The notes under the pieces: model-generated | What the model saw: only the letters and a program-made list of their open reading frames with translations | Told to the model about the DNA's origin: nothing | The model's database searches: none | Translations under genes and position numbers: made by a program | Shown: positions 847 through 54,255 of the stretch, piece by piece | Numbering within the stretch: the first letter of the stretch is position 1 | Layout of the letters: the number at the start of each line of letters is the position of its first letter | Assembly: GCA_000165345.1 (NCBI GenBank) | Contig: CM000432.1 | Location: forward strand, 128,001 to 192,000 | Direction: 5' to 3' | Length of the DNA stretch: 64,000 bases

Positions 847-1350
847 TAGAGCAATAGTAATTAGTGATTATATTTGAATTTATTGATAATTAGTTTATAT
901 AATTAATATTATACTTTTTTTTTGGATGATCATGAATATTAAATTAGGTCTTGAAAGAAAGAAAAACGCCAAGTATAATTTTAAAATGAATGTTAATACA
1001 ATTTTGATCAGGCGATTATTGTGATCTATGTTTATATAATTTTTTCTTTAAATAAATAAATGTAAATTTTAATAATTAATCATTAAAAAAAAGAAGAAAC
1101 TTGGCAGAATTAATAGCGATAACTAAATGATTTATAAGACAAACATAAATATGATGGAAGATATCACTGTTTTTTATTAAAATTTTAAAAAAGTCATTTT
1201 TTTTCTCTTTCTCATCTTAAGCAAAATTTTTTCTCGTAGCTTATTTATCCAATATTTTAATCAATAGCCATTAATTATACTTTTTTGAATTATTCATGTG
1301 GAAAATTTTTGTGATACAATACCGGTATTGAAAGTGCGAAATTTCAAATG

Positions 1351-1392
1351 ATTGCATGCATGTCCACATAATGCATGCAAATATGCATAAGA
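1351..1392. promoter_or_regulatory. Cluster of TGCATGCA-type palindromic motifs ~160 bp upstream of the predicted first exon of the COWP-like gene
   Basis: gattgcatgcatgtccacataatgcatgcaaatatgcata has two exact TGCATGCA copies plus an ATGCATA. The motif is a well-known apicomplexan upstream element; that AP2-family proteins bind it is general knowledge. Its promoter role here is inference. Confidence 0.5.
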
Positions 1393-1550
1393 AAATTGAG
1401 CGCAAAAAAGTTGATATTTAAGTTATTAGAATAAGATATGATGAATTAATAATATAAAGTTCTCGTCATCGAGTGCTGATGCATAGAAAAAAAAAGGAAA
1501 TGAGATTAAAATATTAATTACAGGAAAAAAAAGATTGGATAAAGATATTT

Positions 1551-4500
1551 ATGCAAGTAACATTAAGTTTTGCAGAAAAGCTGAGACCACATTTGAGAAA
1601 ATGTGTGTCTTTGTTTATATTATCAATACTGGTATTTAATGGTAGGTTGAAAATAAAATGAGGGAATTTTTTCTAGTCAAGAGAGAATTTACTATGAATA
1701 AAGAAAAAATTTCCAATACAAATTGAAAAATTAAAAAACAATTTATCTTTGAACAAATTGACTAAAATTTTAATTAGAACCAATTAATTCAGAGAATGGA
1801 CCACAATTAAGAAGATTAGGATCTCATCATCTTCATCACTCGCATCATCATACCCCTGTTCAAGTTCAGGGAAGTATTGTAAGAACGCCAACTGCTCAAG
1901 GATTAGCAAGAGAACTTCCTATTCCAACGCCTTTATATTCTCAAGTTCCAGAAGTGAATGGATCTGAGGAAACTGTTACATCAATACAAGAAACTGTGGT
2001 TGAAACAGGCCATCCAAAGTATTCAAAAAGAGATGTGATTGTTACAAGAGATCCCTTTTACACATGTCCTATGGGATTCAATTTCGAAGGTAAGTTAATA
2101 GGTTTTTTTATTTTCATTTAAACTTTGGAATAACTTTTATTTTAAATTAATTTTTTTTTATAGTTCCTACAATTGATGGAATATCATCATCCCCTCAGCA
2201 AAAATGTTTCAAAATGGAAGTAGCAGATTTTGTATTGGGATGTCCAAATGGTTGGGCATTTAATGGGATTAAATGCACGGGAGTTTTAACAGCAGATGCA
2301 CAGAAAGCATGTGATGAAGGTTTGGATATTTTAATGGACGAAAATGTTGGTATTCAATGTGTACAAAATTTGGTTGCCCCAAAACTTATTTCTTGTCCAG
2401 AAAATTACTTATTATTAGAAAATGAATGCGTTTTTCCAATGCATTCAAAACCTGATTTGATTTGTCCGGAATCCTTTGTTCCACTAAGTAATGGAAATTG
2501 TCAGAAAGATATAAGAGTTCCCGCAGCACTGGAATGTCCTCCAGAATACATTTTAAATAATGGTGAATGTGAAAAAAGAGTCGAAGTTCCAATATCACAA
2601 TTTAATAAAATTTGTCCATTAGGTTTTAATTTGGATACTGATGGAAATTGCACAAAACAAGTAAATATGAATGCTTTATTTACTTGTAAAGAAGGTTATG
2701 AAAAATCTCCAGTTGGAAATGGAGAAAATGGCTGTGTTAGATCAATTGTAATAGATGCAAGATATAGATGTCCACAAGAGTAAGTTTGGATTTGATTAAA
2801 AGTAATTATTTTAATTCATCATAGATATGAACTTATAGATAATAAATGTGTAAAGAAGATGACAAAGCCTCCAATGGTTTCTTGTCAAGAAGGTAAGTTT
2901 TTCATATCATTATTTCAAATAAATAACACTTAAATAAAAACCATTTACAATGCTTTATTTCTTAATCATTATTTTAACTAAATTAGGTTATTCTTTGGAA
3001 AATAATATTGAATGTGTTAAACAAAGCAAGTTACCAGCTAAATTTGAATGTCCAAAGAAGAAAGATTATATGTATAACCCACAAACAAAGTTATGTCATT
3101 CAATGAGTCATCATCATTCTCGTAAGTTATTAATTTGAAAATATATCAAAGAGACTAAAACTAATAATAACCTTTTTAATATCAGAGAAAACACATCAGC
3201 CATTAGTAGTATGTCCAGCTGGATCTATCCCACAAGACAATAGTCACTGTTTATCTATTGAAAGGTCACCTCCAAAAGTGGAATGCCTTGATTCAGGTAA
3301 GTTATTTCGACGGAAAAATCTTTTTGAAAAGAAAGTTTGAATTTGACTGTTTTTAATAATTTATAGGTTGGATTTTTGATCAGAGCATGAAATTATGTGT
3401 ATACAATGAATATACAAGTGTAAATTTTGAATGTCCCATGAATTCTCAAAATATAGGTAACGGAAAGTAAGTTGAAATAGGAAATCAAATAGTAAAAATA
3501 AAACACTTTACTTTAAAAAATACAAAGATGTAAAGTAATGGAAACTGAAAGTACTGATATTGAATGTCCACCTGAATTTGTATATGAAGGAAATGGACTA
3601 TGTATTAGCAGAATACAAGCGGATCCCCAGATTAAATGTCCAAATGGTAAGTTTTAATTGAGTATTTGTAAAATTTTTCCTAATTACAAGTCTTATTTAA
3701 ATAATATTAACTTTATTAAATCATTGAAAACAGGGTCATCTGCTACTCCTCAAGGAACCTGCTTAAAAATTGAATTAATATTACCAAAACCAATTTGTCC
3801 AGAAGGACTTAGACCATCAATAACAGTAATGGATGGACAAATTCCATTGTGTATAGGAAGAGAAACAGTACCAAAACAAGAAACTTGTCCTTCAAATTAT
3901 GAACTTGTGACAGCCTCTGATACTGGGTTAAGAAGATGCAGAACATATACAAAAAGTGAACCAATAATAGCTTGTGCAAATGGATTTGTAGAGGATGCTC
4001 AAGGTTGTGTACAAACTATTACATCTTCTCCAAGACTACTATGTCCAGAAGACTATATACTTCAATATTCTAGATGTATTAAACAAATTGAGGATATGCC
4101 AAATAAAATGTGTCCAGCAGGATTTGAATTGATTGACGATGACCAATGCAGTCAAACAGTTTACTCGAAACCAATTCCAAATTGTCCTGACGATTATATG
4201 TTTGACAATATTGTTAAAAGATGTTATAAAGTAGATGTCCAATATGATTTTGCATCTGTAGATACAGGTATTTACAAGCAAAATTTTACAAGCATTGTAC
4301 AGACAGGAGAAAAGGATGATGATAAAGATGAAAAAACAAGTGAAAATGAGACAATTAAAGAAACTTTTCAAACAAATAATCCTCCTTTCCAGAATCAAAT
4401 TCCAAATTATCCTGGTGGAAGGTATCCTCCATATGAGAGAATGCTCCCTCCTCAAACTCAATCTCAATCCATAAGGCCTCCTCCAGTTCAGACAATGTAT

Positions 4501-4704
4501 CCACCACAAGCATATTTACAAAATGGAGTCTATTCAAGCTACGGAGGAATGATGCCTCAACCTACACAACTTAATACTGGTGCTGCAGGCTACGGCTACC
4601 CCTTTCCTGGCTTCCAACAGTATGCGCCTGCTCCAAGGTTTACAAATAGTCCATCTTACCCAGTTTATATGAGAAGTCTTTCGGAAGAAAAAAATGAGTT
4701 ATAA
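1551..4704 (+). CDS. Secreted cysteine-repeat protein of the Cryptosporidium oocyst-wall-protein (COWP) type, multi-exon. Proposed exons: 1551..1641 (candidate signal-peptide exon, low confidence), 1778 or 1793..2089, 2164..2779, 2825..2892, 2987..3121, 3186..3296, 3367..3466, 3528..3646, 3734..4704 (stop included).
   Basis: Repeated C-P-x-G-[FYW]-x-[LF]...C units (CPNGW, CPENYLL, CPESFVPL, CPPEYIL, CPLGFNL, CPAGS, CPPEF, CPEGL, CPSNYEL, CPEDYIL, CPAGFEL, CPDDYMF) match COWP type-I repeats. Every junction has a GTAAGT-like donor, an AG acceptor and a continuous frame (phases 1,2,1,1,1,2,1), and the joined sequence keeps the Cys spacing, for example ...RYRCPQE|YELIDNKCVKK... and ...NIGNGK|CKVMETESTDIECPPEF.... 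A His-rich stretch (HHLHHSHHH) sits near the N-terminus and a Pro/Gln/Tyr-rich tail at the C-terminus. Exon 1 (MQVTLSFAEKLRPHLRKCVSLFILSILVFN, donor G|GTAGGT, phase 1) is only a prediction of the missing signal peptide. Confidence 0.6.
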
Positions 4705-5110
4705 AATAATGTTAGATATGTTAATTGTGGAGTGATCTTTTAGCAATAAAATATAGCTTCACTAAATATAAATAAGTTTAATAGTCTTATTTTCTCCATT
4801 TTAATTTCTATCCTCCCTTCTATTTTTATGTATTTAGAATTGATTAAGGATTGATTGTAAAGAAGAATTTTCAAGTTAATTTTTAGCTTTTTTTAGTATC
4901 CAAGAAATTATATTTACATCTGTAAACAAAATTATACCTTTTATTTAAGTAAATATTATGTTTGATCAGAATTGAACAAGAAAATACAAAAAAAATTTCC
5001 AATGGAGAAAGGAACAGGAAAATTTCTATTTAAACAAGTATTTTTTTTAAAGATTCCAGTCGTAATCATTCTTTTTATCTAAAAATTCACTAAGTAATTT
5101 GTTTTTTTCC

Positions 5111-5180
5111 GCATGCATACATGTTTTGTGCTACAACATGCAACATAATTTGTCCACATGCATTATTAAATATATGCACA
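5111..5180. promoter_or_regulatory. GCATGCA/CATGCA motif cluster ~650 bp upstream of the Eaf1-like ATG
   Basis: gcatgcatacatg...acatgcaaca...acatgcatta...atatgcacac. Confidence 0.4.
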
Positions 5181-5827
5181 CAAAAATTTTTCGATATATT
5201 TGGGAATGGAATATGATGATTAGGGGGGAAAAAAGTGAGAGAAGCAAACAATAAAGATAATCTTCAAAAATGTTGGGAGTTATGTGATCTGGAACATAAA
5301 TATATAAGTTTGGTGAGAATAAAAAGAAAATGGACAGAGTATATTGAAAATTAAACTATGGGGGCATCAAGTGAATCATACCAGGTTTTAAATATCAAAG
5401 AAAATAAATGAACATTAACCTCAGGTGCGAAAAACATTTAATACAATCAAAAAACTTAGAAAAAAGCGGTAAACGTGCAGTAAGAATATTTATATTTAAA
5501 TAGTCAAGAATAAATAGTAATTTGAATAATTGGTAAGGAACTAAACGGCGGGAAAATAAATGTAGACAGATACCAAACAAAAACAATTTTTGGAAAAAAA
5601 AGCTGAAAAAGGGCCCACAAGAAGGTATAAAAATTGATCAAGATTATTAAAGTTTCAGAGAGTTCTTGGAAGTTTTTACGGCATTATTGCCAGAAAGTGG
5701 GTAATCTATCTGAAATCAGTGAAATTTTTGGAAAAAACAACTGTGTGGATTGTATTGTAGAATTAGCGAAAAATCGATGACAAGAATAAACTAAAAGAGC
5801 CTGGTGCAATATTTAGACTTGAATTCA

Positions 5828-8800
5828 ATGCTGAATCGACTGTATATGGCCGAGAAGGCCTTATCTATACTTCGCAGTGGCAATGCTATACCTTATCCTG
5901 AACCACAAGGTAGTGTAAGAAGCCAGTGGGATTTTTTACTACAGGAGATGACATGGATGTCAAAAGATTATTATGAAGAGCGAAGATGGAAAATTTATGC
6001 AGCCAGACGTTTATCACAAATGGTTCAGAATTATTGGAGGAAAAAGATGCTCAATTTGGAACGCCATATTTCATCTAAATGTAGCGCATTAATTCAGTCA
6101 TTTTGGCTTGGGATTGCTGATAATGTAGATCCTGAATTAATACCAAATGATTTGAAGCCATATACAATGGTTGTTCAGCCTGCACCCGTTGGTGAGGATG
6201 GTCAGGCAAACGCTTCTAAAAGGCGTTTATATAATTATTGCATAAGACAATTTGAAAGGAGTTTATATGAGTGTGAAAAGCTTAATGAGTTGACTAAAAC
6301 TTCTAACGATAATAATAAGGAGAAGAACGTTGAGAATGTTTCAGAAAATGAGATTCCAGCCTCTCCAATGAGCATTGACATCGACCACGATAACGAAAGT
6401 TGTCAGTGGGTAGTAGATGAGGATTTATTGCTACAATTGGATCCACTAGTCTTTGTAAAAACTGCAATTCCACCGACTGCATCATCCACAGATATAATTG
6501 ATCTAGATAACATCCAAAATAAGGGTTCATCAACCAATCAAAATATAGGATCTTCGGCATTAGGTGGTACAAATGCAAATACAAATGCAAGTAATACGGG
6601 AAATACTGTTGGAAGTTCTTCCAAATCTTCATCAAACAATTCGGCCATAACCAAATATTCAGAAATATCCGATTTATTTAACGAATTTTCAAAGAAGCAG
6701 GAAACCGTAGTGGATTTGAATGATTATCGTAAATATCTTGAGAATTGGGCAGATACTGTTCAAGTACTACTTCAAGGACCTGGAATAATTAATACAAGAG
6801 CAGAGTATCGCCCACCTAATTTTCATTTGGATTCAAAGAATTATTTGGTCGCTCCCAGGTCAAACTTTCTGGAGATGGAAGATATATCTCTCATTCTTTC
6901 TCTGTTTGTACTTGCAGTGGATCACTTACCAGCATTCTTAAATCGTTATATGGCATCATCTCCTTCTAATGTTGTATATAGATCTTCAGGAGGAATGATA
7001 TCAGGTTCTTCGTCTCATGAATCTATGGTAAACGACTTTAATGTAGAAAGTAAAAGGAAGAGTAGAAGAAGAGCAGCTTCAAACACAAAGAAGATATCTG
7101 GTGTAATGCCTCCACCCATTCAATCCTCAGTTTCAATGCCACATGGAGTTTCTGGTGGTATTGGTCTTCCACAATCTTCTGCGGTGTCTTCAGTTGGAGG
7201 TGCTATGGGTGGAGGAGTTGCAGGAGGAGCAGTTTCTGCTTCTGGAGGGATTTCAGGTCCTAGCACTGTTCCAATGGTAGGAGACCAATCTACAAGCTTT
7301 GATATTCTTGCATATGCCGATACTTGGGATACTTCCGAAGACATTATATTAGTTTATTTCGTTTCTCAATACTCTTCAACACCTAGTTGTGGGGTTTTGA
7401 GCAAAAAGTTGGTTCCCACAACAAATTGGAACTTGATTGCATTATCTCATAATTACTTTTTTGGTGCTTTATATGGGAGGATGAAAACAGCAAAGCAATG
7501 TCAGGAAAGGTGGAACTTTTTGAATAGGGATGAAATTGATGGATCATCTATTGAGCATGTTGAAAAGAATGTTAGCAAGGATAAAGCTACTGAGGAAGAA
7601 GCTGTTAGTAACAATGGAGAATTATCTGGGAATGCAAGCAACAAAGAAGCAGCTAGCGCTATAGTTATGACTGAAGGCAACGATACAGGTAATGTTACCA
7701 AGAGCGATATAGATCGGTTGATGAAAAGGGAGAAGCAAATCCGGATAATGCCTAATTTGAACAAGCGATATATTATAAGCAGTACTCTTTTGAAACATTT
7801 AAAGGAGTTTAGTAAATCTTTGGAAGATTCCGAGGGATCTGAAAACAAAGCGGAGAATGGATGCCCTAAAGTTGCTTCAGAAGAAGTTGGAGGTGAATTG
7901 ACCGGCACAATAGATTCATCTTCAATGAAAGATTCAAAGGAATTAGAGAAAATGGAAAGTAATGTTACTGATGGTAAAGCTATTTATGGAGACAACTTGC
8001 TATATTTCAAGAAAAAGATCATTCCTAAGATGACTATATTGGATTTAATCGAAAAGAGCAACAATGTGAGAAGTAAGACGGAGAATCATTTAGAGAGTAA
8101 TTCGGGTTCTAATAATGATAATAGTACCGGCTCTAGTATATTAGCTTCTCAGAATAATCAGGGATCTGAGGGTACCCATAACGAAGTTAAAAGCCAGAAT
8201 ATTGTTTCCAATAATGAAGATGGTGAATGCACTAATAGGGGAAATAACAAGGGGTCAAATAATATTAAGACAGTAAGCTCTTATCAGAGAGAGCAATTGG
8301 AGCTTTTGTCTTCAATAGTGAGCAAATTTGGTGCAAACATGAGAAAGAGGTCATTACAGAATCAGCAGTTTCAAGACTCTTTCCAGATTACTTCTTATCT
8401 GCAGACAATTCAACAAAATTATGGGTCAAACATCCTTCAGGACGGGGTATTACCACCTCACCAGAGCCATGCAAATCTAGTAGCACATGTTAATCAGATG
8501 CTAAATCAACATATAGAGTCTACAATGGCCAATTATAATAATACTGGAGGTGGTAATGTTGGCAACAATACTTCCACAAGTACTAATACTGGTGGTGTAA
8601 ATACTAATCCCAATAATGCTGGGACTTCTAATGCTAATGCTGGTGGGAATAATATCAATGGAAATGTTAACAACAATATTGGCGGTGGAGGTAGCATTGT
8701 TGGAAATAATTCTAATGGAGTAATTAACTCAGGCTCAGGTGGTCCTAGTACCAGTAGTAACATGCCAAATCATACTCAAGGTAATTCGGGTACTCAAATG

Positions 8801-51438: not shown

Positions 51439-54255
51439 TTAGAACTTATTTTTTCTTGTATATTGCATTTGATTTTGGTATTGGAAATTAGTATTATCTC
51501 CTATATTATTATTAATATAATTCCCTTGAACAGACTTACCACATAAACCATCTTGTCTCATGTATGTGCCATTGGGACATTGATATGTTGGATCCATTAC
51601 TCCAACACATTTACCTTCAGATTGGGTATATCCTGATGGACAACTAAGTATGAATGGAGCAAATTCAAGAGCAGCACATTGACCAATATTTGATAAAGGC
51701 CTTACAGAGCCAAATAATCTTCTTCTTTGTCCAAAACCGCTAATACTTGCTAATTTTGCCATTTGCAAAGAATTGTTTTCATTGTAATAATTATTTGATG
51801 ATAGAATTCCTTCTTGAGACATATTTGAGAAAGAATTGTTCATGTTGGAGTAATTGACCACATTTCTAACTTCAGAGTATCCAGGTGGACATTGCATTTT
51901 TCCCTCAGTTGGAACAAGCTCTATACAATTTTTATGCTTACAGCTCTTCTTGTGAATATACCTACATTTATTATGTTGTGTTATTTTTCCTCCCGATAAA
52001 CAATGATATTTAAAAGGTTTCTTGATAGTTTCCATACACATATCTGCTTTATGAAGCCCAAGTGGCTCGGTTTTTTCTGGACATTCCACATTAGGCTTAA
52101 ATTCTAAATAACTTTCACAGCCTTCAATTGGACAGGTTTTTTCTATTGTTTCTAGGCAAAAGTCTCCCATTAAAGTCGAACTATCATCCAAACATCTTTT
52201 TTCTATAGGTTGAGTCACTTTAGAGACACATTTTGGCTTTTCTTTAATGTTTGAGATCACTTTAATACTATGATGAGTGCCATGATGATGATTTGAAATC
52301 AACATTCTTTTATTATAACTGGCTGTTTCAAGAATATCATCTCCTGTAAAAATTTCACTTCCGAAAGGGCATTTCCATTCAGGGCCAGACATTTTTGCTA
52401 TATTTCTACAGTTTTCACTTCTACACACTGGATTTTTAGTTTCAATGCATTCATATTGGCCAAATTCATTAGTTCTTAGCTCAAAGTTATCTGAACATTG
52501 ATAGAGAGGATTCATTTTCTTTTCTCTGGGATTTTCTTCTCCTTTTGGGATACATTTTGGAAGTCTGGTTGTTGAGCTCTCGGATAATAAGTAGCCTTCT
52601 GAGCATTTGTACAAGATAGAATCAATGTTTTGCTGCTCACATCTACCACTTCTCAATTTGTAATCAGTTGGACAACTAAAGTTTGGCATAACTGAACTAA
52701 TTTTAATGCATTTCCTCTTATCAGTAGACTGTGAACCATTATGGCAGACATACGTAGCTGGAGCTGTTTCTACGTTAACACACATTTTGGGTATGTATTC
52801 TGGTATCTCAACACATTGATGTACTATTTTAGTACTTTCTCTGGGAACAATATAATCACGATGATGTCCATGGTGATGATTTCCATGATTAAGCATCATA
52901 TTCAAATTTCTAGTCTCTAAAACGACTTCTTCTCTATTAATATCTATTCCAGTTTCAGTATCATAGCTAGTACACTTTTTCTTGTATTGAGTAATTGAAC
53001 AATCCTTTTCTATCTTTCTCTCACATACTTGAGTTTGTAAATTCAATACAAATCTTGGAGGACAAGTAACAATTGGATCAATTTCAATCTCTCTCTTGCA
53101 TTGATTATCAACTTGATCAAAGATATATCCCTCTGGACAATCAACATTCGGGCTCATGCTTTGATTCTTTACACAATATTGGCCAACAATAACTGCATCT
53201 GGATCCATACAATATGAAAGTGGGTTAATTTCAATAATTTGTCTCTCCTGAAGATAACATAAACCATTTCTATGTATATATCCGTCATTACAACGAGGAA
53301 TTGCTGATTCCTTTTTTATACACTTTCTAACACTTTCAACAAATACAAAACCGATTGGACATTGTTGTGGAATTTCTTCTTTTATTAAATAGCAAATATC
53401 TTCTCCTGAATGATCTTTTTCCATAATCATTCCAGCAGGACATTCGGAAATAGGCTGCATAAATTCTTCTTTCTGACAATAATGTCGTGATTCTAAAGTT
53501 GGATATGCACCTTGAATTGATGAATCTCGTTTAACATCTTTCAATAAATAACCTTCTGGACAGAATATTTCTGGTCTTGACTTTTGATTACATGATCCTT
53601 TACCATTATCTGATGATCCCTCTGGACATATTGGCTTATGAAATACCTTAACCCTACAAACTGGAGACTTTGAACCATCGTCATTGTACTCTTTTTCACC
53701 ATCCAAAAATGCTACATTTGATGTATAGCTAGACTCATCCTGTTCATGAATTGCTCGAATAGATAAAGGTATCTCACGGCAACTATATTCTTTCTTAACC
53801 AATTTTTTAATATAGCATCCATCATCTCTTTCTTCCTCATTTACCCCACAATTCATTTCTGCTTCCTTTAATTTATAACAATCACCATTTCCATCTTCAA
53901 TATATCCTGCTTCGCACTTTGGAGTTTCTCTATTTTCTATATAACATGCCTGAGTGCGCTTGTCATATCTAGTGTTTTCTGGGCACGTCAAAACCTTATC
54001 TGTATGTACATTTTTACTACATTGAGTTGCTCCTGGTGAAGATTTAAATCCCTCAGGACAAGATTTCAACAATTGCTCAGTTACAATACAACCGTTTTCT
54101 TGCTCTGAAAATATTCCGTTATGTGGACAGTTTGGAATAGGGCTAACTAAACAATCAATTCCATTACATATCGCACCATTTGCACTGACAAGGGTATTTG
54201 TTTTGATCCAAATCCCTAATAGCAATATATATAAAATCAAATTAAAAGGAAGCAT
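51439..54255 (-). CDS. Oocyst-wall-protein (COWP)-family cysteine-repeat secreted protein, intronless, 938 aa
   Basis: A signal peptide MLPFNLILYILLLGIWIKTNTLVSANG is followed by tandem C-P-x-G-[FY]-x-[LF]...C units (CPEGFKS, CEAGYIED, CPEGYLLKD, CPAGMIM, CPIGFVFV, CNDGYIH, CPEGYIFD, CPPRFVLN, CSEGYLL, CPFGSEIF, CPPGYSEV, CPSGYTQ, CPNGTYM) and His-rich tracts (HGNHHHGHH, NHHHGTHH). It is a paralogue of the gene at 1551..4704. Confidence 0.7.
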   Translation of the reverse strand: MLPFNLILYILLLGIWIKTNTLVSANGAICNGIDCLVSPIPNCPHNGIFSEQENGCIVTEQLLKSCPEGFKSSPGATQCSKNVHTDKVLTCPENTRYDKRTQACYIENRETPKCEAGYIEDGNGDCYKLKEAEMNCGVNEEERDDGCYIKKLVKKEYSCREIPLSIRAIHEQDESSYTSNVAFLDGEKEYNDDGSKSPVCRVKVFHKPICPEGSSDNGKGSCNQKSRPEIFCPEGYLLKDVKRDSSIQGAYPTLESRHYCQKEEFMQPISECPAGMIMEKDHSGEDICYLIKEEIPQQCPIGFVFVESVRKCIKKESAIPRCNDGYIHRNGLCYLQERQIIEINPLSYCMDPDAVIVGQYCVKNQSMSPNVDCPEGYIFDQVDNQCKREIEIDPIVTCPPRFVLNLQTQVCERKIEKDCSITQYKKKCTSYDTETGIDINREEVVLETRNLNMMLNHGNHHHGHHRDYIVPRESTKIVHQCVEIPEYIPKMCVNVETAPATYVCHNGSQSTDKRKCIKISSVMPNFSCPTDYKLRSGRCEQQNIDSILYKCSEGYLLSESSTTRLPKCIPKGEENPREKKMNPLYQCSDNFELRTNEFGQYECIETKNPVCRSENCRNIAKMSGPEWKCPFGSEIFTGDDILETASYNKRMLISNHHHGTHHSIKVISNIKEKPKCVSKVTQPIEKRCLDDSSTLMGDFCLETIEKTCPIEGCESYLEFKPNVECPEKTEPLGLHKADMCMETIKKPFKYHCLSGGKITQHNKCRYIHKKSCKHKNCIELVPTEGKMQCPPGYSEVRNVVNYSNMNNSFSNMSQEGILSSNNYYNENNSLQMAKLASISGFGQRRRLFGSVRPLSNIGQCAALEFAPFILSCPSGYTQSEGKCVGVMDPTYQCPNGTYMRQDGLCGKSVQGNYINNNIGDNTNFQYQNQMQYTRKNKF

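What the first reader, a model, noticed from the sequence alone, without database searches (positions are those of the whole stretch)
1551..4704. Intron-rich COWP-type gene with exon boundaries that track the cysteine-repeat units
I can place at least seven, probably eight, short introns (45-150 nt) in this gene: 2090-2163, 2780-2824, 2893-2986, 3122-3185, 3297-3366, 3467-3527 and 3647-3733, plus a putative intron between the signal-peptide exon and 1778. All have GTAAGT-like donors and AG acceptors. Elsewhere in the window 18 of 22 genes are intronless, including the second COWP paralogue. Most exons are symmetric in phase 1 (2987..3121, 3186..3296, 3528..3646), and each carries one or two C...CPxG[FY]...C modules. 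That is the arrangement expected for modular extracellular domains built by exon duplication or shuffling, so this locus could record how the COWP repeat array expanded.
Basis: partly seen in the sequence, partly recalled or inferred. Interest (0 to 1): 0.6.

Follow-up and report, generated by a model that had tools for sequence, protein, structure and literature searches.

The report
COWP7: known eight-intron oocyst-wall gene
This is the already annotated Cryptosporidium parvum oocyst wall protein 7 gene (cgd4_500), whose eight introns are real and published; half of the introns in its repeat region cut the same codon of the cysteine repeat, and some of those positions recur in a free-living algal relative, so they look ancient rather than a trace of recent repeat growth.

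Summary
It translates to an 840-aa protein identical, first to last residue, to C. parvum oocyst wall protein 7 (EAK87738.1). A 2025 paper states that cowp7 (cgd4_500) has eight predicted introns. A published primer that spans the exon 2/3 junction supports intron 2.

All eight introns keep their position and phase in C. andersoni and seven of eight in C. bovis, so they predate the genus.

The protein holds 22 two-cysteine units. Four of the seven introns in the array sit in the codon just before the aromatic residue of C-P-x-G-[FYW], inside the motif rather than between motifs (permutation P = 0.02-0.04).

This 22-unit protein is an old orthogroup, also found in Rhytidocystis, gregarines and the chromerid alga Vitrella. 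Two Vitrella genes, with introns confirmed by transcript contigs, have 6 of 9 and 4 of 9 array introns in that same codon. COWP7 introns 3 and 8 match Vitrella introns in column and phase.

Introns and exons show no residual similarity to one another.

The gene structure is therefore known. The periodic intron is real but ancient, and it does not record a Cryptosporidium-specific expansion.

The parts
1551..1641 (+). Exon 1 of COWP7 (cgd4_500): start codon and hydrophobic signal-peptide region. Ends in phase 1.
   Evidence: The spliced product is identical to EAK87738.1.
1642..1777 (+). Intron 1, 136 nt, GTAGGT..AG, phase 1. Lies 11 codons upstream of the conserved RRLG motif.
   Evidence: Same column and phase in C. 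bovis; same phase a few columns away, in poorly aligned sequence, in C. andersoni. Vitrella P0177 and metagenome locus L006 have phase-1 introns at a similar place in a poorly aligned region.
1778..2089 (+). Exon 2, 312 nt, phase 1 to 1. Holds the N-terminal low-complexity region, the KYSKRDVIVTRDPFYT motif and the start of repeat unit 1.
2090..2163 (+). Intron 2, 74 nt, GTAAGT..AG, phase 1. Lies in unit 1, eight codons after its first Cys.
   Evidence: A published forward RT-qPCR primer spans the 2089|2164 junction. It is absent from the genome and present in the spliced CDS, and the 97-bp amplicon matches the paper's value.
2164..2779 (+). Exon 3, 616 nt, phase 1 to 2. Covers units 1 to 9 (start of unit 9).
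2780..2824 (+). Intron 3, 45 nt, phase 2. Lies in unit 9, in codon C1+3 (CPQ|EY).
   Evidence: Same alignment column and phase as an intron of Vitrella P0178. By ordinal unit count it also matches P0177 (CPK|EY).
2825..2892 (+). Exon 4, 68 nt, phase 2 to 1. Exactly one repeat period, from unit 9 C1+3 to unit 10 C1+3.
2893..2986 (+). Intron 4, 94 nt, phase 1. Lies in unit 10, in codon C1+3 (CQE|GY).
2987..3121 (+). Exon 5, 135 nt, phase 1 to 1. Covers units 10-11 up to the His-rich hinge.
3122..3185 (+). Intron 5, 64 nt, phase 1. Lies in the His-rich hinge after unit 11 (HHHS|QKTH). This is the variable mid-point of the 11+11 array.
3186..3296 (+). Exon 6, 111 nt, phase 1 to 1. Covers the hinge, unit 12 and the start of unit 13.
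3297..3366 (+). Intron 6, 70 nt, phase 1. Lies in unit 13, in the Gly codon before the aromatic residue (CLDS|GW).
   Evidence: Both Vitrella genes have an intron in the same or the adjacent codon, but in phase 2.
3367..3466 (+). Exon 7, 100 nt, phase 1 to 2.
3467..3527 (+). Intron 7, 61 nt, phase 2. Lies in unit 14, in the codon just before the second Cys.
3528..3646 (+). Exon 8, 119 nt, phase 2 to 1. It is not symmetric, contrary to the finding.
3647..3733 (+). Intron 8, 87 nt, phase 1. Lies in unit 16, in codon C1+3 (CPN|GS).
   Evidence: Same alignment column and phase as introns in both Vitrella genes, in two MAFFT modes.
3734..4704 (+). Exon 9, 971 nt. Covers units 16-22, the CYKVDVQYDF motif and the Pro/Gln/Tyr-rich tail. 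Stop codon TAA at 4702-4704.
   Evidence: Residue P827 matches the residue number used in the published CRISPR tagging design.

Best explanation
The locus is cowp7 (cgd4_500) on C. parvum chromosome 4. Its pre-mRNA carries eight short, AT-rich spliceosomal introns with near-perfect GTAAGT donors. Removing them joins nine exons into an 840-aa secreted protein.

The protein has a signal peptide, an RRLG motif, and 22 two-cysteine units arranged as 11, a His-rich hinge, then 11. The spacing from the second Cys of a unit to the first Cys of the next is almost invariably 12. A Pro/Gln/Tyr-rich tail follows. Published work places the protein, at low abundance, evenly across the oocyst wall, presumably as a disulfide-cross-linked structural component.

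Shown here:
- The gene model.
- Conservation of all eight intron positions across the genus.
- Membership of COWP7 in a 22-unit orthogroup older than the phylum.
- Recurrent placement of introns in the codon preceding the aromatic residue of C-P-x-G-[FYW], in both Cryptosporidium and Vitrella.

Inferred:
- At least introns 3 and 8, and probably introns 1 and 6, were inherited from the common ancestor of apicomplexans and chromerids.
- COWP7 is therefore an intron-retaining survivor in a genome that lost most of its introns.
- The periodic intron reflects an ancient feature of this gene and not a recent expansion of the COWP repeat array.
For: Gene model:
- The ORF is continuous and the splice signals are canonical.
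- The product is identical in full to EAK87738.1 and three other C. parvum annotations. Four assemblies give the same 3,154-nt span.
- PMC12548878 states that cowp7 is predicted to contain 8 introns, and reports a C-terminal endogenous tag that localises to the oocyst wall.
- Retaining any single intron gives a stop codon within 2-15 codons, so a tagged full-length product implies that all eight are removed.
- The junction primer of PMC8305202 exists only in the spliced CDS.

Genus-wide conservation:
- C. andersoni has all eight introns: seven at the same alignment column and phase, and intron 1 in the same phase a few columns away in a poorly aligned stretch. C. bovis has seven at the same column and phase and intron 4 shifted by one codon and phase. 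C. felis and C. canis share the seven they annotate, with minor discrepancies (C. felis intron 2 four columns away; C. canis intron 3 annotated with a different acceptor).

Repeat register:
- Unit table and permutation P = 0.036 / 0.018.

Deep orthology:
- The profile search finds collinear hits.
- There are 44 array cysteines in Rhytidocystis, gregarine-type contigs and Vitrella P0177. All 44 are invariant between Cryptosporidium and Rhytidocystis.

Vitrella introns:
- The annotated introns were mapped, and each is confirmed by independent transcript contigs.
- 6 of 9 and 4 of 9 array introns lie at C1+3.
- COWP7 intron 8 matches both Vitrella genes in column and phase, and intron 3 matches P0178. 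Intron 6 lies in the same codon with a different phase.

Structure model:
- A model with pLDDT 70-84 over residues 300-510 places C-P-x-G-[FY] in a loop between strands, so the recurrent intron lies in a connecting loop.
Against: - The overlap of intron-bearing units between COWP7 and Vitrella P0177 is only modestly significant if C1+3 is treated as an insertion hot spot: hypergeometric P = 0.046, or 0.023 when phases are included.
- MAFFT shifts the pre-hinge units of P0177 by one unit, so the match to the P0177 intron in unit 9 rests on ordinal counting.
- The intron in unit 13 differs in phase between the lineages.
- Introns 2, 4, 5 and 7 have no counterpart outside Cryptosporidium.
- Orthologues in Gregarina niphandrodes and in several unidentified contigs are intronless. 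Ancestral presence therefore requires several independent losses.
- I obtained no spliced C. parvum transcript. No cDNA-type contig carries the protein.
- The structure model has low confidence overall (mean pLDDT 52, pTM 0.24).
Confidence: 0.72

Rival explanations
1. Parallel gain at a hot spot. The codon before the aromatic residue is usually GGN after a codon ending in A or G. That repeatedly creates AG|G(T) proto-splice sites, and introns were inserted there independently in the Cryptosporidium and Vitrella lineages.
For: Two of the four COWP7 sites are perfect AAG|GT or CAG|GT junctions. Phases differ among units and between lineages at unit 13. The unit overlap is only P = 0.046 under this null. 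Gregarine orthologues are intronless.
Against: COWP7 units 3, 7, 8, 17 and 21 have equally good AAG|GT, TAG|GT, CAG|GA or AAG|GA sites at that codon but no intron. The unit 9 junctions are AGA|AT and AGA|GT, which are not proto-splice sites, yet they share codon and phase in both lineages. Intron 8 matches both Vitrella paralogues exactly. From general knowledge, Cryptosporidium is a lineage of large-scale intron loss; the 2004 annotation had only 213 introns.
Confidence: 0.2
2. One reading: the exon structure records expansion of the COWP repeat array by exon duplication or shuffling at this locus or within the Cryptosporidium COWP family.
For: Intron positions are periodic. Six of eight introns are phase 1. 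Exon 4 is exactly one repeat period long.
Against: The 22-unit array is conserved unit for unit outside Cryptosporidium. Introns share no sequence: 1 of 28 pairs reaches z > 2. Intron-bearing units are not more similar than random sets (P = 0.87), and units share only 0-8 of 20 non-Cys residues. All introns are fixed in C. andersoni. The paralogue in the window is intronless and only 22-26% identical, in several alternative registers.
Confidence: 0.06
3. Artefact: the small ORFs are separate genes, or the locus is a decaying pseudogene in which chance GT..AG pairs allow a reading frame to be stitched together.
For: None beyond the short exon sizes (68-135 nt).
Against: Every spliced junction restores the canonical Cys spacing. 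The protein is 54-97% identical and collinear across five other species. Intronless orthologues encode the same 22 units in one ORF. There is published junction RT-qPCR and endogenous C-terminal tagging.
Confidence: 0.01

Closest known systems
Cryptosporidium parvum oocyst wall protein 7, COWP7 (cgd4_500; EAK87738.1, Q5CQJ2)
   Same: Identical 840-aa product and the same 3,154-nt gene span with eight introns. PMC12548878 states the gene has 8 predicted introns and places the protein in the oocyst wall.
   Different: Nothing differs. This is that gene.
Vitrella brassicaformis OWP-domain proteins CEM28898.1 (P0177) and CEL92668.1 (P0178)
   Same: They share the RxLG motif, the (T)DPYYEC-type lead-in, 22 (or 21) two-Cys units split 11+11 (or 10+11) by a hinge, and a Pro-rich tail. 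Their introns are concentrated in the same codon of the repeat, and some are in the same unit and phase as COWP7 introns 3, 8 and (nearly) 6.
   Different: They have 10 and 9 introns, with additional classes of position: three codons after the second Cys, and phase 0 one residue before the first Cys. The hinge insert is about 120 aa. The genome is GC-rich. They lack counterparts of COWP7 introns 2, 4, 5 and 7.
COWP7-type orthologues of Rhytidocystis (GHVQ/GHVS transcripts), Gregarina niphandrodes XP_011129683.1 and Selenidium pygospionis
   Same: Collinear array, with all 44 cysteines aligned to COWP7 in Rhytidocystis. The C-terminal CY-K-[IV]-[ED]-V-[KQ]-Y-x-F motif and a Pro/Gln tail are shared.
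   Different: The G. niphandrodes gene and a related gregarine-type contig are single ORFs without introns. Rhytidocystis and Selenidium are known only as transcripts.
Other COWP family members, for example the paralogue in this window at 51439-54255, probably COWP3 (cgd4_670)
   Same: Signal peptide and the same kind of periodic Cys repeat.
   Different: It is a single exon, 22-26% identical, not collinear, and has extra His-rich and irregular segments. COWP3 concentrates at the oocyst suture, whereas COWP7 is spread over the wall.
Metazoan modular extracellular genes built by exon shuffling (EGF-type modules bounded by phase-1 introns); comparison from general knowledge
   Same: Phase-1 bias (6 of 8 introns) and introns in register with a disulfide-rich repeat.
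   Different: Here the introns cut inside the sequence motif. Only some units carry one, only 3 of 7 internal exons are symmetric, and there is no evidence that the module moves between unrelated genes.

Membership tests
COWP / OWP family (Cryptosporidium oocyst wall proteins) | Sequence identity or clear homology to a named family member | tested here: met
   Identical to EAK87738.1 'oocyst wall protein 7'. Orthologues are named OWP7 in C. hominis, C. canis, C. ubiquitum and C. tyzzeri.
COWP / OWP family (Cryptosporidium oocyst wall proteins) | Cysteines at a regular interval of about 10-12 residues across most of the protein (as described in PMC12548878) | tested here: met
   There are 44 array cysteines. 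The spacing is 12 in nearly every C2-to-C1 interval and 11-22 in the C1-to-C2 intervals.
COWP / OWP family (Cryptosporidium oocyst wall proteins) | N-terminal signal peptide and no transmembrane domain | tested here: inconclusive
   Exon 1 encodes a hydrophobic stretch, CVSLFILSILVF, which the structure model predicts as a helix. No signal-peptide predictor was available. [quoted passage not shown]
COWP / OWP family (Cryptosporidium oocyst wall proteins) | Localisation to the oocyst wall | not testable with these tools
   Reported for COWP7-mNeon / mScarlet in PMC12548878.
COWP / OWP family (Cryptosporidium oocyst wall proteins) | A curated domain model | tested here: not met
   No Pfam-A family matches at E <= 0.01 and no PDB relative was found. 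This reflects the absence of a matching model, not evidence against membership.
Exon-shuffled or exon-duplicated modular gene (one module per symmetric exon) | Introns lie at module boundaries | tested here: inconclusive
   In sequence terms the introns lie inside C-P-x-G-[FYW], three codons after the first Cys. In the structure model (pLDDT 70-84 locally, 52 overall) that motif is a loop joining consecutive strand groups, so the position could be a structural boundary.
Exon-shuffled or exon-duplicated modular gene (one module per symmetric exon) | Exons symmetric in phase (1-1) | tested here: not met
   Only 3 of 7 internal exons are 1-1. Exons 3, 4, 7 and 8 are asymmetric.
Exon-shuffled or exon-duplicated modular gene (one module per symmetric exon) | Residual similarity among duplicated exons and introns | tested here: not met
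   No intron-intron similarity. Intron-bearing units are no more alike than random quartets, P = 0.87.
Exon-shuffled or exon-duplicated modular gene (one module per symmetric exon) | Periodic intron position relative to the repeat | tested here: met
   COWP7: 4 of 7, P = 0.018. Vitrella: 6 of 9, P about 0.0002, and 4 of 9, P = 0.006.

The most novel reading that the evidence does not exclude
The introns in the codon before the aromatic residue of C-P-x-G-[FYW] are relics of an exon-intron module. Tandem duplication of that module built the 22-unit OWP array before chromerids and apicomplexans diverged. COWP7 is the one Cryptosporidium wall-protein gene that still preserves part of that arrangement, possibly because its low, female-stage-restricted expression limited intron loss through reverse transcripts, or because splicing is needed for its expression.
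Probability: 0.3. Interest if true: 0.45.

Novelty: already known. Interest (0 to 1): 0.3.

Why it matters
The gene, its product and its eight introns are already in GenBank and CryptoDB-based publications, so the finding adds no new element to the genome. Three points came out of the check.

First, COWP7 belongs to a rigidly conserved 22-unit wall-protein orthogroup that extends to free-living Vitrella. That makes it the COWP most likely to represent the ancestral wall component.

Second, this gene alone holds 8 introns, against 213 in the whole original C. parvum annotation (a count reported in PMC2483917). At least two of the eight sit at positions shared with Vitrella. It is therefore a compact test case for intron retention versus gain in an intron-poor parasite.

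Third, junction-spanning assays are practical for this gene, as the published viability RT-qPCR already shows. None of these points changes current understanding of oocyst wall biology.

Tried and rejected
- Templeton et al. 2004 (PMC321576), the paper that defined COWP1-9, is not held. What it says about COWP7 introns could not be checked.
- Pfam found no family and the PDB holds no relative.
- I looked for spliced C. parvum transcript contigs that carry the exact protein. Only four chromosome-scale genomic records exist.
- Intron-versus-intron local alignments with shuffles gave nothing beyond chance.
- Unit-versus-unit similarity and lag analysis showed no higher-order repeat and no clustering of intron-bearing units.
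It cannot place introns on specific units.
- Synteny between C. parvum and gregarines was not found. Gregarine loci share GET4 - SpoU - OWP - steroid dehydrogenase. The C. parvum upstream ORF has no Pfam match and the downstream gene is an HSA/Myb protein.
- A possible third, in-frame intron in metagenome locus L006 (the long loop of unit 17) could not be resolved.
- The full-length AlphaFold model is too weak for a fold search or for disulfide assignment (mean pLDDT 52, pTM 0.24).
Full report
**1. The observation**

I read 1200-5100 and listed the ORFs. The eight introns are 1642-1777, 2090-2163, 2780-2824, 2893-2986, 3122-3185, 3297-3366, 3467-3527 and 3647-3733. They are 45-136 nt long and 14-23% GC, in a window of 32% GC. 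Seven have GTAAGT donors and one has GTAGGT. All have AG acceptors.

Six introns are phase 1 and two (introns 3 and 7) are phase 2. The symmetric 1-1 exons are 1778-2089, 2987-3121 and 3186-3296.

**2. Identity**

The 840-aa translation is identical from first to last residue to C. parvum Iowa II 'oocyst wall protein 7' (EAK87738.1, Q5CQJ2) and to three later C. parvum annotations. Orthologues of 799-851 aa exist in C. meleagridis (97% identity), C. canis (80%), C. felis (79%), C. bovis (73%) and C. andersoni (54%). Four C. parvum assemblies annotate the same 3,154-nt gene about 129 kb into a 1.1-Mb chromosome.

The window is therefore C. parvum chromosome 4 and the gene is cowp7, cgd4_500. 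No Pfam model matches and there is no solved relative.

**3. What is published**

- PMC12548878 (PLoS Pathog 2025) says in the legend of its S3 Fig that 'Cowp7 is predicted to contain 8 introns'. It tags the endogenous C terminus and finds the fusion, at low intensity, evenly across the oocyst wall.
- Its CRISPR design mutates 'proline at position 827'. Residue 827 of my model is proline.
- Retaining any one intron creates a stop codon within 2-15 codons. A C-terminal tag that reaches the wall therefore implies removal of all eight introns.
- PMC8305202 designed an intron-spanning COWP7 RT-qPCR and reports no amplification from genomic DNA. Its forward primer is absent from the genome. It is present in my spliced CDS across the 2089|2164 junction, and the amplicon is 97 bp, as the paper states.
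- PMC2483917 counted 213 introns in the whole 2004 C. parvum annotation, with a median of 61 nt and 78% AT. This one gene held about 4% of them.
- Templeton et al. 2004 is not held.
- My literature searches found no discussion of the position of these introns relative to the repeats or to other taxa.

**4. Conservation within the genus**

I fetched the orthologous loci of C. andersoni, C. bovis, C. felis and C. canis. I recovered the annotated exon chains with a script that requires an exact match to the annotated protein.

On a protein alignment, seven of the eight C. andersoni introns fall at the same column and phase as in C. parvum. Intron 1 has the same phase but lies five columns away, in the poorly aligned signal-peptide region. 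C. andersoni belongs to the gastric clade, and this is the deepest split I sampled. C. bovis shares seven at the same column and phase, with intron 4 shifted by one codon and phase. The C. felis and C. canis models lack the signal-peptide exon and share the other seven, with C. felis intron 2 four columns away. The C. canis model leaves part of intron 3 in frame. Intron lengths differ freely between species. All eight introns therefore predate the radiation of the genus.

**5. Register with the repeat**

Downstream of residue 126 the protein has 44 cysteines forming 22 units. Each unit is C1-x(10-21)-C2-x(11)-next C1. The C2-to-C1 spacing is 12 in almost every unit, and C1 is usually followed by P-x-G-[FYW].

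Seven introns lie in the array:

| Intron | Unit | Position | Phase |
|---|---|---|---|
| 2 | 1 | eight codons after C1 | 1 |
| 3 | 9 | CPQ\|EY, codon before the aromatic residue | 2 |
| 4 | 10 | CQE\|GY, codon before the aromatic residue | 1 |
| 5 | 11 | His-rich hinge after the unit | 1 |
| 6 | 13 | CLDS\|GW, codon before the aromatic residue | 1 |
| 7 | 14 | codon before C2 | 2 |
| 8 | 16 | CPN\|GS, third codon after C1 (no aromatic residue follows) | 1 |

Random placement of seven introns in the array reaches the observed concentration with P = 0.036 for the exact codon offset and P = 0.018 allowing one codon of slack. The boundaries are in register with the repeat, but they fall inside the conserved motif rather than between motifs.

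**6. No trace of recent duplication**

With splice consensus ends removed, only 1 of 28 intron pairs exceeds z = 2 against shuffles. Units share only 0-8 of 20 non-Cys positions. The four intron-bearing units are no more alike than random quartets (P = 0.87), and there is no higher-order periodicity.

The second COWP gene in the window (51439-54255, minus strand) is a single 938-aa ORF. It is probably COWP3, cgd4_670, the only other nearby chromosome 4 COWP named. It is 22-26% identical to COWP7 in several alternative registers, so it cannot be used to place introns on particular units.

**7. An orthogroup older than the phylum**

A profile of four COWP7 orthologues, searched against 1.84 billion representative proteins, gave 287 hits. 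A few of these are collinear over nearly the whole profile. Their sources are:

- Rhytidocystis pertsovi and Rhytidocystis sp. (transcript assemblies GHVQ and GHVS).
- Selenidium pygospionis and Gregarina niphandrodes.
- Two Vitrella brassicaformis proteins.
- Several unidentified contigs.

All share an RxLG motif, a KP-x-Y-[VI]K...T lead-in, the C-terminal C-[YF]-K-[VI]-[ED]-V motif and a Pro/Gln-rich tail.

Counting cysteines gives 22 units in C. parvum, C. andersoni, both Rhytidocystis species, locus L006, the gregarine-type contig, three further contiguous ORFs and Vitrella P0177 (11 + long hinge + 11). It gives 21 units in G. niphandrodes, Vitrella P0178 and Chromera. All 44 array cysteines are invariant in an alignment of four Cryptosporidium and two Rhytidocystis proteins. 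The array was therefore complete long before Cryptosporidium existed.

**8. Introns outside Cryptosporidium**

- The G. niphandrodes gene and a syntenic gregarine-type contig are single ORFs.
- Metagenome locus L006 has a phase-1 intron after the signal peptide and a phase-0 intron one residue before C1 of unit 15.
- Vitrella P0177 has 10 introns and P0178 has 9. Independent transcript contigs match the genomic loci in 11 and 10 blocks at 99-100% identity, with breaks at the annotated introns (one P0178 acceptor is ambiguous by a few nucleotides).
- In P0177, 6 of 9 array introns lie in the third codon after C1 (P about 0.0002). In P0178, 4 of 9 do (P = 0.006). This is the same codon that COWP7 introns 3, 4, 6 and 8 occupy.

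In MAFFT alignments of 15 orthologues, in both E-INS-i and L-INS-i modes:

- COWP7 intron 8 coincides in column and phase with introns of both Vitrella genes.
- Intron 3 coincides in column and phase with one in P0178. By ordinal unit count it also matches CPK|EY in P0177.
- Intron 6 lies in the same or the adjacent codon as introns in both Vitrella genes, but in phase 1 rather than phase 2.
- Intron 1 lies within a few poorly aligned columns of phase-1 introns in P0177 and L006.
- The L006 phase-0 intron coincides exactly with introns in both Vitrella genes.

Under a uniform null, two or more exact matches have P = 0.0007. Under a hot-spot null that only shuffles which units carry a C1+3 intron, the overlap of three units has P = 0.046, or 0.023 when phases are included.

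**9. Hot spot or inheritance**

The codon concerned often creates an AG|GT-like exon junction. However, COWP7 units 3, 7, 8, 17 and 21 have equally good sites and no intron. The unit 9 junctions (AGA|AT in C. parvum, AGA|GT in Vitrella) are not proto-splice sites, yet they share codon and phase.

I therefore favour inheritance for introns 3 and 8, and probably for introns 1 and 6. Introns 2, 4, 5 and 7 are undecided. I give parallel gain about one chance in five.

**10. Structure**

An AlphaFold model built from six orthologues has mean pLDDT 52 overall but 70-84 over residues 300-510. There it shows a repeating pattern: a short strand before C1, a five-residue loop at C-P-x-G-[FY], a short strand, then a long strand starting at C2. 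If that is right, the recurrent intron lies in a loop that joins successive strand groups. This would reconcile 'inside the sequence motif' with 'near a structural boundary'. It is an inference from a weak model.

**11. Verdict**

The register between introns and repeats is real. It is an ancient property of a 22-unit wall-protein gene shared with Vitrella, with no sign of duplication at this locus or within Cryptosporidium. I found no published statement of the periodicity or of the shared positions, but this is an incremental evolutionary note and not a new kind of element.

Noticed in passing
window 1353-1360 and 1372-1379; also 12856, 15483, 23949, 23983, 50142: The palindrome TGCATGCA occurs twice about 170-200 nt upstream of the COWP7 start codon. 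It occurs 7 times in the window against 0.64 expected (0 of 100 shuffles reach 7). PMC3734150 describes it as the binding site of ApiAP2 cgd2_3490 and as the 'AP2_1' upstream motif.
   Followed up: partly
P0029 (Shewanella algicola WP_188927108.1), P0032 / P0175 (Pseudoalteromonas sp. T1lg23B WP_105169424.1), P0023 (JGI, 4088 aa), P0026 (Logan, 3386 aa): Giant proteins hit the COWP7 profile at E = 5e-107 to 1.5e-38 in 11-23 stretches. Two come from marine gammaproteobacteria (P0029, P0032/P0175). The other two (P0023, P0026) are of unidentified source but share an N-terminal region with the Pseudoalteromonas type. All have the same cysteine spacing of 12 alternating with 11-13, for example NCPSNYTLSGSSCSRLLTDTNTWKC. 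An OWP-type repeat in bacteria may be worth separate study.
   Followed up: partly
L004 (C. canis) 2406-2433; L003 (C. felis); L002 (C. bovis) 2929-2987: Several orthologue annotations look imperfect. The C. canis model uses a 28-nt 'intron 3' that leaves a 16-residue in-frame insertion. The C. felis and C. canis models lack the signal-peptide exon. C. bovis intron 4 is shifted by one codon and phase relative to the other species.
   Followed up: partly
L005 (Logan SRR11177099) and L007 (Gregarina niphandrodes KK211459.1): The gene order GET4 - SpoU methylase - OWP - (TFIIS-type zinc ribbon) - steroid dehydrogenase is shared by G. niphandrodes and an unidentified contig, which is therefore probably from a gregarine. 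C. parvum does not share this neighbourhood.
   Followed up: partly
window 4560-4704 (COWP7 residues about 802-840): The C-terminal tail AAGYGYPFPGFQQYAP.P...SYPVYMR.L is almost invariant from C. parvum to C. andersoni, while the preceding 100 residues are variable. A Tyr/Pro-rich conserved tail on a wall protein could be a cross-linking or sorting signal. Non-Cryptosporidium orthologues have a different Pro/Gln-rich tail.
   Followed up: no
window 51439-54255 (minus strand): The second COWP gene is one 938-aa ORF with a signal peptide, irregular Cys spacing and His-rich stretches (NHGNHHHGHH, SNHHHGTHH). It is probably COWP3 (cgd4_670), which the literature places at the oocyst suture.
   Followed up: partly
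L006 (ENA ERZ25084491 contig), 2840-5848: An unidentified metagenome organism (53% GC) carries a COWP7-type gene with at least two introns. One of them (4400-4747, phase 0) is at exactly the position of introns in both Vitrella genes. A 47-residue loop in unit 17 may hide a third, in-frame intron.
   Followed up: partly
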